Below, in pieces: positions 60,156 through 60,356 of a stretch of DNA of 64,000 nt (positions are counted from its first letter, which is position 1; the number at the start of each line of letters is the position of its first letter). The notes beneath the pieces are model-generated. The model was not told the DNA's origin. It was given only the letters and a program-made list of their open reading frames with translations, and did no database searches. The DNA comes from Chlamydiales bacterium. GTDB lineage: Bacteria; Chlamydiota; Chlamydiia; Chlamydiales; VFKH01. Made by a program: the position numbers and the translations under genes. The stretch covers positions 1,785 to 65,784 of the forward strand of contig JARLHF010000021.1 of NCBI GenBank assembly GCA_031292375.1. The letters are read 5' to 3'.

Positions 60156-60356
60156 TTAACAACAGAAGCTGTTGTTTGTCCCTGTATTTCCACAACCTGG
60201 TGTACAGAGAGACCTGCTTGTGATGAGTTCATTAACTCCTGGTTTTTCGCCAGGTGCTGCAGTTACTGTGAGATCGAGATCATACTCGTCTATTTCAGTT
60301 TTAGTAGTTTTAAAAAAAATAGGTGACATTGAATTGCGTTCAACTTGCATTAGCAT
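60156..60356 (-). CDS. lanA: class I lanthipeptide precursor LanA (epidermin/nisin-like core)
   Basis: 66 aa. GGAGG (60367..60363) lies 6 nt before ATG 60356. The leader has EYDLDL (an FNLD-box equivalent). The C-terminal 22 aa are ITSRSLCTPGCGNTGTNNSFCC (60224..60159), compared with nisin ITSISLCTPGC... and gallidermin IASKFLCTPGCAKTGSFNSYCC. Confidence 0.9.
   Translation of the reverse strand: MLMQVERNSMSPIFFKTTKTEIDEYDLDLTVTAAPGEKPGVNELITSRSLCTPGCGNTGTNNSFCC

What the first reader, a model, noticed from the sequence alone, without database searches (positions are those of the whole stretch)
60156..60356. LanA core is a nisin-head / epidermin-tail hybrid: ITSRSLCTPGCGNTGTNNSFCC
The C-terminal 22 residues align position for position with gallidermin (IASKFLCTPGCAKTGSFNSYCC) and mutacin 1140 (FKSWSLCTPGCARTGSFNSYCC). 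Residues 1-11 match nisin (ITSISLCTPGC) except for I4R.

All ring-forming positions of epidermin are conserved:
- S3-C7
- T8-C11
- residue 16 (Thr here, Ser in epidermin)-C21
- S19-C22, forming AviCys

The core also has the nisin-type T2 and S5, which are potential Dhb2 and Dha5. In total there are 7 Ser/Thr and 4 Cys.

The core has only one basic residue (R4) and a Gly-Asn hinge instead of Ala-Lys/Arg, so it is much less cationic than known family members.

The 44-aa leader has an EYDLDL box where FNLD is expected.
Basis: partly seen in the sequence, partly recalled or inferred. Interest (0 to 1): 0.88.

Follow-up and report, generated by a model that had tools for sequence, protein, structure and literature searches.

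The report
Chlamydial epidermin-type lantibiotic with dead cyclase
The ORF is a real, selectively maintained precursor of an epidermin/clausin-type lipid II-binding lantibiotic. Its chemistry is ordinary for a large uncharacterised subfamily, but it sits in the chromosome of an amoeba-type (Parachlamydiales) chlamydia, next to a conserved cyclase paralog that has lost its zinc active site.

Summary
A 66-aa ORF on the minus strand (60156-60356) encodes a gallidermin/nisin-family LanA (Pfam PF02052, 48 bits against a cutoff of 21). It heads an operon: lanA, LanC-like 1, LanC 2, LanD, LanB.

The "nisin-head/epidermin-tail hybrid, unusually non-cationic" reading is only partly right.
- The same design is shared by clausin (16/22 identical, no basic residue), by Bacillus and Clostridia homologs (18/22), and by 58 database clusters.
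- In those clusters, +1 charge and the Gly-Asn hinge are the commonest states.

1. The host is a Parachlamydiales chromosome. RadA, 8 kb from lanB, is 71-74% identical to Protochlamydia/Parachlamydia RadA. Near-identical cores occur in at least six other chlamydial lineages, with strong purifying selection on the core (pN/pS 0.12) and divergent leaders.
2. LanC1 belongs to a single clade (299/300 bootstrap) with a full LanC fold (TM 0.90 to MadC). Every member lacks the catalytic His and a complete Cys-Cys-His zinc site.
3. There is no LanP, conserved LanT, LanFEG or LanI, and no Pro-Arg cleavage site. A membrane-anchored AAA+ protein and a signal-bearing S12 serine hydrolase recur in the clusters instead.

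Verdict: a new variant of a known kind, of moderate interest.

The parts
60156..60356 (-). lanA: 66-aa class I lantibiotic precursor. Leader codons 1-44 = 60225-60356, core codons 45-66 = 60159-60224, stop = 60156-60158.
   Evidence: The exact protein is held in NCBI as 'gallidermin family lantibiotic [Chlamydiales bacterium]'. Core pN/pS is 0.115 across 7 chlamydial loci.
60270..60284 (-). Leader recognition box YDLDL (residues 25-29), an FDLD/FNLD-type variant.
   Evidence: NF038155 FDLD-family hit over residues 23-55. The D/L positions are conserved among homolog leaders.
60363..60367 (-). Shine-Dalgarno GGAGG, 6 nt upstream of the lanA ATG.
   Evidence: Read directly from the sequence.
60118..60146 (-). 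Perfect 12-bp stem-loop just after the lanA stop, with no U-tract. Probable transcript-stabilising or attenuating hairpin between lanA and the enzyme genes.
   Evidence: dG -20.5 kcal/mol. A comparable stem with an unrelated sequence follows lanA in 6 of 7 chlamydial loci. The function is inferred.
58800..60095 (-). LanC1: LanC-fold paralog without the catalytic His or zinc ligands (pseudo-cyclase). The start is probably the ATG at 60095; the ORF list starts at the TTG at 60101.
   Evidence: Pfam LANC_like 1.5e-38. NisC H212/C284/C330/H331 correspond to I/W/S/N here. AF2 pLDDT 88.9, TM 0.90 to MadC. Forms one clade with 299/300 bootstrap.
57473..58762 (-). LanC2: canonical zinc-dependent lanthionine cyclase.
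   Evidence: Pfam 1.8e-58. The AHG, WCYG and CHG motifs are intact. It is the ortholog of the single LanC in the Bacillus clausin-type clusters.
56904..57476 (-). LanD: HFCD flavoprotein, a peptidyl-Cys oxidative decarboxylase (AviCys formation). Its start overlaps the lanC2 stop (ATGA).
   Evidence: Pfam Flavoprotein 4.3e-27. MrsD 2.6e-36 and EpiD 3.7e-26, with the catalytic His and PNMNxxMW aligned.
53914..56925 (-). LanB: full-length glutamyl-tRNA-dependent dehydratase with glutamylation and elimination domains.
   Evidence: Lant_dehydr_N 8.8e-150 and Lant_dehydr_C 1.4e-49, both covered almost end to end.
52042..53904 (+). Membrane-anchored AAA+ protein: hydrophobic hairpin, then a Clp/Hsp100 D1-like ATPase and a coiled coil. 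Convergent with lanB, 9 bp apart. A recurrent cluster neighbour of unknown role.
   Evidence: Orthologs (38-40% identity) lie inside or beside the clusters in L001, L023 and L013 (a fragment).
50183..51961 (+). MsbA-like ABC exporter without a peptidase domain. A weak candidate for the exporter; it may be housekeeping.
   Evidence: It lies 80 bp upstream of the AAA+ gene, but no ortholog is present beside any other chlamydial cluster.

Best explanation
This is a functional class I lantibiotic operon in the chromosome of a Parachlamydiales bacterium, an environmental, amoeba-associated type of chlamydia.

Proposed pathway:
1. The 66-aa LanA is recognised through its YDLD leader box.
2. LanB dehydrates up to seven Ser/Thr residues.
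3. The canonical zinc cyclase LanC2 closes Lan(3-7), MeLan(8-11) and MeLan(16-21).
4. LanD oxidatively decarboxylates Cys22, and the resulting enethiol adds to Dha19 to form the AviCys ring.

The product would be a 22-residue, epidermin/clausin-topology peptide with Dhb2, Dha5 and Dhb14. Its predicted monoisotopic mass is 2062.84 Da. The conserved A/B rings would bind the pyrophosphate of lipid II in other bacteria.

LanC1 is encoded directly after lanA. It keeps the full LanC fold but has lost the catalytic site. It most likely acts non-catalytically, as a precursor-binding scaffold or chaperone, or as an intracellular sequestering partner.

Leader removal and export do not use LanP or LanT. 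The junction is (N/T/K)-(E/Q)-(L/I)|(I/V)TS. Candidate components are the recurrent signal-bearing S12 serine hydrolase (absent from this window) and the membrane AAA+ protein.

What is shown: gene identities, the residue patterns, conservation and selection, and the host. What is inferred: the ring pattern, the target, the LanC1 role, processing and export.
For: Family and operon.

Selection and conservation:
- Core pN/pS is 0.115, against about 0.82 for the adjacent leader codons.
- Seven chlamydial loci carry ITS[KR]SLCTPGCGNTG[TS]xNS[FY]CC with divergent leaders.

Host:
- RadA at 44726-46099 is 71-74% identical to Protochlamydia, Parachlamydia and Parachlamydiales RadA.
- The window has diderm housekeeping content and no GC anomaly over the cluster.
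- The same family occurs in 4 further Chlamydiota assemblies, including a complete 2.85-Mb chromosome.

LanD and AviCys: L014's peptide ends ...FCCSCK, and that locus has no LanD.

LanC1:
- The active site is missing in all 15 orthologs, while the canonical LanCs keep it in every sequence complete at those positions.
- The fold is retained and the group has a single origin.
- The zinc ligands and His212 are essential in NisC (PMC9889658).

Accessory genes.
Against: - There is no expression, mass-spectrometry or activity data for any member of the chlamydial clade.
- No dedicated exporter, leader protease or immunity gene is present in the window, so release of an active peptide is unproven.
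- How a diderm would move the peptide across its outer membrane, and how it would protect its own lipid II, is unknown.
- The cluster in the complete Parachlamydiaceae SSA5 chromosome has fragmented lanB and lanD, so some copies may be decaying.
- Class III LanKC cyclase domains also lack zinc ligands yet still cyclise, so LanC1 need not be inactive.
Confidence: 0.7

Rival explanations
1. LanC1 is an active, metal-independent cyclase, comparable to class III LanKC cyclase domains or the zinc-free AviCys cyclase RosX. It would install one specific ring, for example the enethiol-mediated AviCys ring or the Thr16-derived MeLan. The two LanCs would then divide the cyclisation work, and the product topology could differ from epidermin's.
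For: - LanC1 keeps the whole fold with high model confidence and has been retained intact in 15 lineages.
- Zinc-free catalysis of enethiol addition has a precedent in class V (PMC12291118), and LanKC domains lack zinc ligands (PMC7268733).
- Sequence around the former active site is still conserved (RDTWW.G.P, SF..GRAG).
Against: - L014 has LanC1 but no LanD and no C-terminal Cys. L012 and the Bacillus clausin-type clusters have LanD but no LanC1. LanC1 is therefore neither necessary for AviCys nor tied to it.
- The general acid/base His is replaced by F, Y, I or S.
- The residues at the former zinc-ligand positions vary freely, which looks like relaxation of the site and not a new catalytic centre.
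Confidence: 0.2
2. The peptide is not an inter-bacterial antibiotic. It would act on the producer or its host, for example by modulating the chlamydia's own lipid II-dependent septal peptidoglycan synthesis during development, or by acting as a signal or effector inside the amoeba.
For: - No LanT, LanP, LanFEG or LanI is present.
- The producer is related to obligate intracellular chlamydiae and itself depends on lipid II (established knowledge).
- The net charge is low.
Against: - The core is nearly identical to those of free-living Bacillus and Clostridia producers (18/22), where an antibiotic role is the established one for clausin and epidermin.
- Strict conservation of the lipid II-binding rings fits the classical target.
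- There is no direct evidence for a self-directed role.
Confidence: 0.1
3. The cluster is a non-functional relic of horizontal transfer from Firmicutes, or the contig is mis-binned non-chlamydial DNA.
For: - Marsh 2010 proposed a Firmicute origin for the Parachlamydia cluster.
- The SSA5 copy looks fragmented.
- Export and immunity genes are missing.
Against: - All five genes are intact in the window.
- Synonymous sites in the core are near saturation while the amino-acid sequence is kept.
- GC content matches the flanks.
- The cluster is physically contiguous with chlamydial RadA and other housekeeping genes.
- The clade recurs in at least 9 further loci on contigs with chlamydial-type neighbours, including a closed chromosome.
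Confidence: 0.05

Closest known systems
Clausin (Shouchella/Bacillus clausii; FTSVSFCTPGCGETGSFNSFCC), a characterised epidermin-group class I lantibiotic
   Same: - 22 residues, 16/22 identical.
- xTSxSxCTPGC head with Thr2 and Ser5, Gly at hinge position 12, C-terminal NSFCC.
- Seven dehydratable residues and AviCys made by a LanD (PMC10413542).
- Low or no positive charge.
   Different: - Arg4, Asn13, Thr16 (giving MeLan instead of Lan in ring C) and Asn17.
- The leader junction is NEL|I, and the host is a chlamydia.
- The clausin-type Bacillus loci examined here have a single canonical LanC, a LanT-like ABC transporter and further ABC-type genes.
Epidermin/gallidermin and mutacin 1140
   Same: - Same length and the same ring-forming positions, 14/22 identical.
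- LanB, LanC and LanD enzymology. The LanD aligns to EpiD with the catalytic His and the PNMNxxMW motif.
   Different: - They have Ala-Lys/Arg at the hinge (side-chain charge +2), a Pro-Arg cleavage site with a LanP subtilisin, and LanT/H and LanFEG.
- None of these is present here.
Nisin A
   Same: Residues 1-11 are identical except I4R: rings A/B, Dhb2, Dha5 and the lipid II pyrophosphate-cage motif.
   Different: - There are no rings C-E, no NMK hinge and no pore-forming C-terminal half.
- An AviCys tail is present instead.
- There is no NisP, NisT, NisI or NisFEG.
Class I lantibiotic cluster of Parachlamydia acanthamoebae Hall's coccus (Marsh et al. 2010, PMC3091789)
   Same: - Chlamydial host.
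- The reported gene order lanA-lanC-lanB matches the lanA-LanC1-lanB order of loci L008, L013 and L014.
   Different: - That cluster was only noted in silico.
- The peptide type, the second LanC, LanD and the loss of the LanC active site were not described.
- I could not retrieve its sequence to confirm that it belongs to the same family.
Zinc-less cyclase modules: class III LanKC cyclase domains, and RosX (class V AviCys cyclase)
   Same: Lanthipeptide cyclisation-related proteins that lack the Cys-Cys-His zinc site. LanC1 structurally matches LanKC cyclase domains at TM about 0.54.
   Different: - LanC1 is a stand-alone class I LanC paralog (TM 0.90 to MadC) that sits beside a canonical LanC.
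- RosX has a kinase fold.
- No activity is known for LanC1.

Membership tests
Gallidermin/nisin family lantibiotic precursor (Pfam PF02052, TIGR03731) | Profile score above the curated cutoff | tested here: met
   PF02052 48.1 bits against 21; TIGR03731 48.1 bits against 29.3.
Gallidermin/nisin family lantibiotic precursor (Pfam PF02052, TIGR03731) | N-terminal lipid II-binding ring motif SxxxCTP(G/S)C in the core | tested here: met
   S3-R-S-L-C7-T-P-G-C11. The motif is defined in PMC7268733.
Gallidermin/nisin family lantibiotic precursor (Pfam PF02052, TIGR03731) | F(N/D)LD-type leader box and adjacent LanB and LanC genes | tested here: met
   YDLDL; NF038155 23.2 bits against 20. Full-length LanB and a canonical LanC2 are in the same operon.
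Gallidermin/nisin family lantibiotic precursor (Pfam PF02052, TIGR03731) | The peptide is actually dehydrated and cyclised, and is antibacterial | not testable with these tools
   Needs expression, mass spectrometry and bioassay.
Epidermin group (22-aa AviCys lantibiotics) | C-terminal S-x-x-C ending the peptide, plus an HFCD LanD decarboxylase with its catalytic residues | tested here: met
   The core ends S19-F-C-C22-stop. LanD aligns to MrsD and EpiD with the His and PNMNxxMW conserved. The LanD-less locus L014 has a C-terminally extended peptide.
Epidermin group (22-aa AviCys lantibiotics) | Ring-forming positions 3-7, 8-11, 16-21 and 19-22 conserved | tested here: met
   Position-for-position alignment, 14/22 identity to gallidermin. 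Residue 16 is Thr and not Ser.
Epidermin group (22-aa AviCys lantibiotics) | Pro-Arg/Pro-Gln leader junction cleaved by a cluster-encoded LanP subtilisin | tested here: not met
   The junction is N-E-L|I. No S8 protease turned up among the window's ORFs that were scanned, nor in the related chlamydial loci.
Epidermin group (22-aa AviCys lantibiotics) | Dedicated LanT/LanH export and LanFEG/LanI immunity genes | tested here: not met
   The only nearby transporter is an MsbA-like ABC protein that is not conserved beside other chlamydial clusters. No ABC-2 permease pair or LanI-like gene was found.
Zinc-dependent LanC lanthionine cyclase (applied to LanC1, 58800-60095) | Alpha/alpha-toroid LanC fold | tested here: met
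   pLDDT 88.9; TM 0.90 to MadC (8BYK) and 0.79 to NisC.
Zinc-dependent LanC lanthionine cyclase (applied to LanC1, 58800-60095) | Zinc ligands Cys284, Cys330 and His331, and catalytic His212 (NisC numbering) | tested here: not met
   W, S, N and I in the window. None of the 15 orthologs has the catalytic His or a complete zinc triad (two keep one ligand in the six-locus set). Every canonical LanC that is complete at those positions has them. The residues are essential in NisC (PMC9889658).
Zinc-dependent LanC lanthionine cyclase (applied to LanC2, 57473-58762) | Zinc ligands and catalytic His present | tested here: met
   AHG, WCYG and CHG motifs are intact.
Nisin group | 34-aa core with rings C-E and a flexible hinge for pore formation | tested here: not met
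   The core is 22 aa with four Cys. Only rings A/B correspond.

The most novel reading that the evidence does not exclude
Parachlamydiales carry a lineage-specific lantibiotic system. In it, a zinc-less LanC paralog (with the membrane AAA+ protein and a periplasmic S12 hydrolase) replaces the classical LanP/LanT/LanI/LanFEG functions. LanC1 would hold or chaperone the modified precursor, or catalyse a metal-independent ring closure. That would let a diderm, lipid II-dependent intracellular bacterium safely make and deploy a lipid II-targeting antibiotic inside its amoeba host. The peptide would then serve as a defensive-symbiosis or competition weapon against co-infecting or ingested bacteria.
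Probability: 0.2. Interest if true: 0.8.

Novelty: new variant of a known kind. Interest (0 to 1): 0.55.

Why it matters
The peptide itself adds little chemistry beyond clausin-type lantibiotics. The context raises three testable questions.

1. Host biology. Chlamydiae are obligate intracellular bacteria with an unusual, lipid II-dependent division mechanism. A conserved, selectively maintained lipid II-binding lantibiotic in environmental chlamydiae suggests antibacterial warfare or host defence inside amoebae. Only gene-level hints of this have been published (Marsh 2010; Maire 2024).

2. The dead cyclase. A single clade of LanC-fold proteins with an ablated zinc site, kept next to lanA, is a natural experiment on what LanC proteins do apart from catalysis: leader or core binding, complex scaffolding, immunity, or metal-independent cyclisation. 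This bears on the open question of how AviCys rings are closed in class I peptides.

3. Maturation and export. The lack of LanP, LanT and LanFEG, together with recurrent S12 hydrolase and AAA+ genes, points to an undescribed maturation and export route for lanthipeptides in diderm bacteria.

Tried and rejected
- Full-text searches for the core motif (CTPGCGNTG) and for the clausin sequence found nothing. Sequences usually sit in figures.
- A search for 'LanC1/LanC2/two LanC' was swamped by unrelated 'lancet' and 'lancelet' hits, so I cannot exclude a prior description of zinc-less class I LanC paralogs.
- A 'lanthipeptide + chlamydiae' search gave no paper describing these peptides.
- The MsbA-like ABC transporter as LanT: rejected as a conserved component, because no ortholog lies next to any other chlamydial cluster.
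- LanC1 as a dedicated AviCys cyclase: weakened by L014 (LanC1 present, no LanD) and by L012 and Bacillus (LanD present, no LanC1).
- The sigma-70 promoter scan upstream of lanA gave one match that overlaps the start codon, below shuffle expectation, so it was uninformative.
- An Rfam scan of the whole window gave no hits.
- A search for the S12 hydrolase in the window found none.
- A search for extra lanA copies in the window found none.
- Mis-binning or contamination: rejected.
- One tree-building script timed out. A first NJ run had undefined distances. The corrected run is.

Full report
**Observation.** The minus strand of 60156-60356 carries a 66-codon ORF, MLMQVERNSMSPIFFKTTKTEIDEYDLDLTVTAAPGEKPGVNEL-ITSRSLCTPGCGNTGTNNSFCC. 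A GGAGG Shine-Dalgarno sits 6 nt upstream. The ORF scores 48 bits on Pfam Gallidermin (cutoff 21) and on TIGR03731 (cutoff 29.3). Its leader matches the FDLD-family class I model, 23.2 bits against a cutoff of 20. The reference peptide sequences come from memory. The clausin and epidermin sequences reproduce the published masses to within 0.08 Da.

**Operon.** Directly downstream on the same strand lie five features:
- A perfect 12-bp hairpin (60118-60146, dG -20.5 kcal/mol).
- A LanC-like gene, LanC1 (58800-60095).
- A second LanC, LanC2 (57473-58762).
- A LanD flavoprotein (56904-57476), whose start overlaps the lanC2 stop.
- A full-length LanB (53914-56925).

LanD aligns to MrsD (2.6e-36) and EpiD (3.7e-26), with the catalytic His and the PNMNxxMW motif conserved. 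LanC2 keeps the AHG, WCYG and CHG motifs of NisC and MadC. The enzymes needed for an epidermin-type product are therefore all present: dehydration, three thioether rings and a C-terminal AviCys. The window has only one lanA.

**Host.** NCBI holds the identical peptide as 'MAG: gallidermin family lantibiotic [Chlamydiales bacterium]' on a 73-kb contig. Independent checks support a chlamydial origin:
- RadA, 8 kb from lanB, has all its named best hits at 71-74% identity in Protochlamydia, Parachlamydia and Parachlamydiales.
- The rest of the window is diderm chromosomal DNA: RND efflux with an outer-membrane factor, a T2SS component, Kdp, heme synthesis, Mfd, AlaRS and EF-P.
- GC content over the cluster (0.36-0.38) matches the flanks.
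- A scan of species-representative genomes found the same peptide family in four other Chlamydiota assemblies, including a closed 2.85-Mb Parachlamydiaceae chromosome.
- Metagenome contigs add further loci.

Mis-binning is therefore excluded for practical purposes.

**Is the gene real and functional?** Seven chlamydial loci encode ITS[KR]SLCTPGCGNTG[TS]xNS[FY]CC behind strongly divergent leaders. In the 22 core codons, synonymous differences are near saturation (pS 0.76) while pN is 0.087, a ratio of 0.115. A crude ungapped comparison of the preceding 22 leader codons gives about 0.82. A stable stem-loop with an unrelated sequence follows the lanA stop in six of seven loci. This resembles the known architecture of lantibiotic operons, but its function here is inferred.

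One internal control supports the LanD/AviCys assignment. The locus whose peptide carries a C-terminal extension (L014...FCCSCK) is also the one complete cluster without LanD.

**How unusual is the core?** It is not very unusual.
- Bacillus nitratireducens and B. proteolyticus (ITSISACTPGCGNTGSFNSFCC, in 2-4 tandem copies), Alkalicoccobacillus porphyridii (ITSISFCTPGCGNTGSFNSFCC) and a Clostridia MAG (ISSQSLCTPGCGNTGTGNSYCC) are each 18/22 identical to the window core.
- Characterised clausin is 16/22 identical.
- A profile search of 1.84 billion representatives found 58 clusters at 50% identity.
- Among their cores, the commonest side-chain charge is +1 (26 of 58), and ten cores are 0 or -1.
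- Gly-Asn is the commonest hinge (19 of 58). 34 cores end in CC, and the rest carry short [ST]C[KR]-type tails.

The 'nisin head/epidermin tail', the Gly-Asn hinge and the low charge are thus the norm for a large, mostly uncharacterised subfamily. The claim that the peptide is much less cationic than known members fails against clausin.

**The unexpected part: LanC1.** Alignment to NisC and MadC shows that LanC1 has Ile for the catalytic His212, and Trp, Ser and Asn for the zinc ligands Cys284, Cys330 and His331. These residues are essential in NisC (PMC9889658).
- All LanC1 orthologs lack the His and a complete zinc triad. This covers six loci plus nine further database proteins, one of which duplicates a locus sequence, with a mean pairwise identity of 41%.
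- The former ligand positions vary. His212 is mostly replaced by Phe or Tyr, and Asp141 is mostly replaced by Asn.
- Each of the 28 other LanCs examined keeps the site wherever the sequence is complete. This includes every LanC2, the single LanC of the Bacillus clusters, and both LanCs of the Clostridia MAG.
- LanC1 sequences form one clade with 299/300 NJ bootstrap support.
- The AlphaFold model is confident (pLDDT 88.9, pTM 0.91). It superposes on MadC at TM 0.90 and on NisC at 0.79.
- In five of six loci with a recognisable lanA, LanC1 is the first gene after lanA.

This is a conserved pseudo-cyclase, or at least a non-zinc LanC-fold protein, that arose once and has been kept.

It is not simply an AviCys cyclase. 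L014 has LanC1 but no LanD, while L012 and the Bacillus clusters make do with LanD and one canonical LanC. I favour a non-catalytic role, such as precursor binding or scaffolding, or intracellular sequestration. I give a metal-independent catalytic role about 0.2, because class III cyclase domains and the class V AviCys cyclase RosX work without zinc.

**Missing and substituted functions.** No subtilisin-type LanP, LanFEG, LanI or two-component regulator is present in the window or around the related chlamydial clusters.
- The predicted junction is (N/T/K)-(E/Q)-(L/I)|(I/V)TS, not Pro-Arg or Pro-Gln.
- The nearby MsbA-like ABC exporter (50183-51961) is not conserved beside other clusters, so it is only a weak exporter candidate.
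- Two other genes recur. The first is a PF00144/S12 serine hydrolase with SxxK and YSN motifs and an N-terminal hydrophobic signal or anchor, found in L001, L012, L014, L023 and L024 but not in this window.
- The second is an AAA+ protein with a conserved hydrophobic segment ahead of a Clp/Hsp100 D1-like ATPase. It is found in the window at 52042-53904, in L001 and L023, and as a fragment in L013.
- Their roles are unknown. The hydrolase is a plausible leader peptidase.

**Comparison with the literature.**
- Marsh et al. (2010) noted in silico a lanA-lanC-lanB cluster in Parachlamydia acanthamoebae and suggested a Firmicute origin. They reported CHG and WCYG conserved in 98% and 95% of LanCs without singling out the chlamydial one.
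- Maire et al. (2024) mention a lanthionine synthetase in Algichlamydia.
- Dharamshi et al. (2022) list RiPP-like clusters in chlamydiae.
- I found no description of the peptide family, the duplicated LanC, or the loss of its active site. My literature search for the last point was imperfect.

**Verdict.** The finding is real and the family assignment is right, but the stated reason for high interest (a peculiar hybrid, weakly cationic core) does not hold. The peptide is a new member of the clausin/epidermin group. The chlamydial cluster architecture is a new variant of a known kind: a zinc-less LanC paralog, no LanP/LanT/immunity genes, and recurrent S12 and AAA+ genes. Interest is moderate (0.55). 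It would be higher if LanC1 proves to have a defined new role, or if the peptide is shown to act in amoeba-symbiont ecology.

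Noticed in passing
window 52042-53904 (+): A 620-aa AAA+ protein with a hydrophobic hairpin (residues 139-194) ahead of a Clp/Hsp100 D1-like ATPase and a coiled coil. It is convergent with lanB. Orthologs lie inside or beside the lantibiotic clusters of L001, L023 and L013. Its role is unknown.
   Followed up: partly
L001 1-455, L012 5982-7376, L014 14580-15962, L023 4963-6393, L024 11251-12612: A PF00144 (beta-lactamase/S12) serine hydrolase with SxxK and YSN motifs and an N-terminal signal or anchor is embedded in five chlamydial clusters. 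It is absent from this window. It is a candidate leader peptidase or a cell-wall-related immunity factor.
   Followed up: partly
L014 10001-10207; also P0152, P0166, P0169-P0171, P0174, P0179, P0183, P0192, P0193: A sub-group of the peptide family carries a C-terminal [ST]C[KR] extension (...FCCSCK, ...FCCTCR). In L014 this coincides with the absence of LanD, which suggests an extra thioether ring in place of AviCys.
   Followed up: partly
L008 4861-5061 (-), with LanC 3199-4560 and LanB 67-3189: A second, unrelated class I precursor (...NELFDIDL...TATCFNVCHTGYCTNFNC), with its own LanB and canonical LanC, lies next to the epidermin-type cluster in the same chlamydial contig.
   Followed up: no
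L023 246-425 (+): Between a truncated lanA and LanC1 there is a 59-aa ORF ending ...VNQSITSRNELCTNCC. It looks like a shortened precursor variant with a 12-residue core.
   Followed up: no
L013 11621-16590 (Parachlamydiaceae SSA5, CP058704): In this closed chromosome, lanB, lanD and the AAA+ gene appear split or fragmented. This is either pseudogenisation or long-read frameshift errors.
   Followed up: no
L016 10001-10696; L017 10001-10317: Bacillus nitratireducens and B. proteolyticus carry four and two tandem identical lanA copies encoding ITSISACTPGCGNTGSFNSFCC.
   Followed up: no
P0189, P0195, P0197, P0200: Family members of 114-127 aa have a long N-terminal extension containing a conserved HHHRQAAF(Y/H)L motif ahead of a DDYDL(D/E) box. 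The leader architecture is different and the taxon is unknown.
   Followed up: no
window 1654-7251 (-) and 1173-1646 (-): A 1865-aa RHS-repeat protein is followed by a 157-aa ORF with no family match. This is a possible polymorphic toxin and immunity pair in the same chlamydial contig.
   Followed up: no
window 30997-32346 (+): A stand-alone condensation/PapA-like acyltransferase domain protein lies next to the kdp operon.
   Followed up: no
window 62400-64000: About 1.6 kb with no convincing long ORF and no Rfam match. It may be decayed or non-coding sequence.
   Followed up: no
L019 13219-17709 (Clostridia MAG): This Firmicute cluster, for a very similar core, also has two LanC genes, but both keep the full zinc site. 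Cyclase duplication is therefore not unique to chlamydiae; loss of the active site is.
   Followed up: partly
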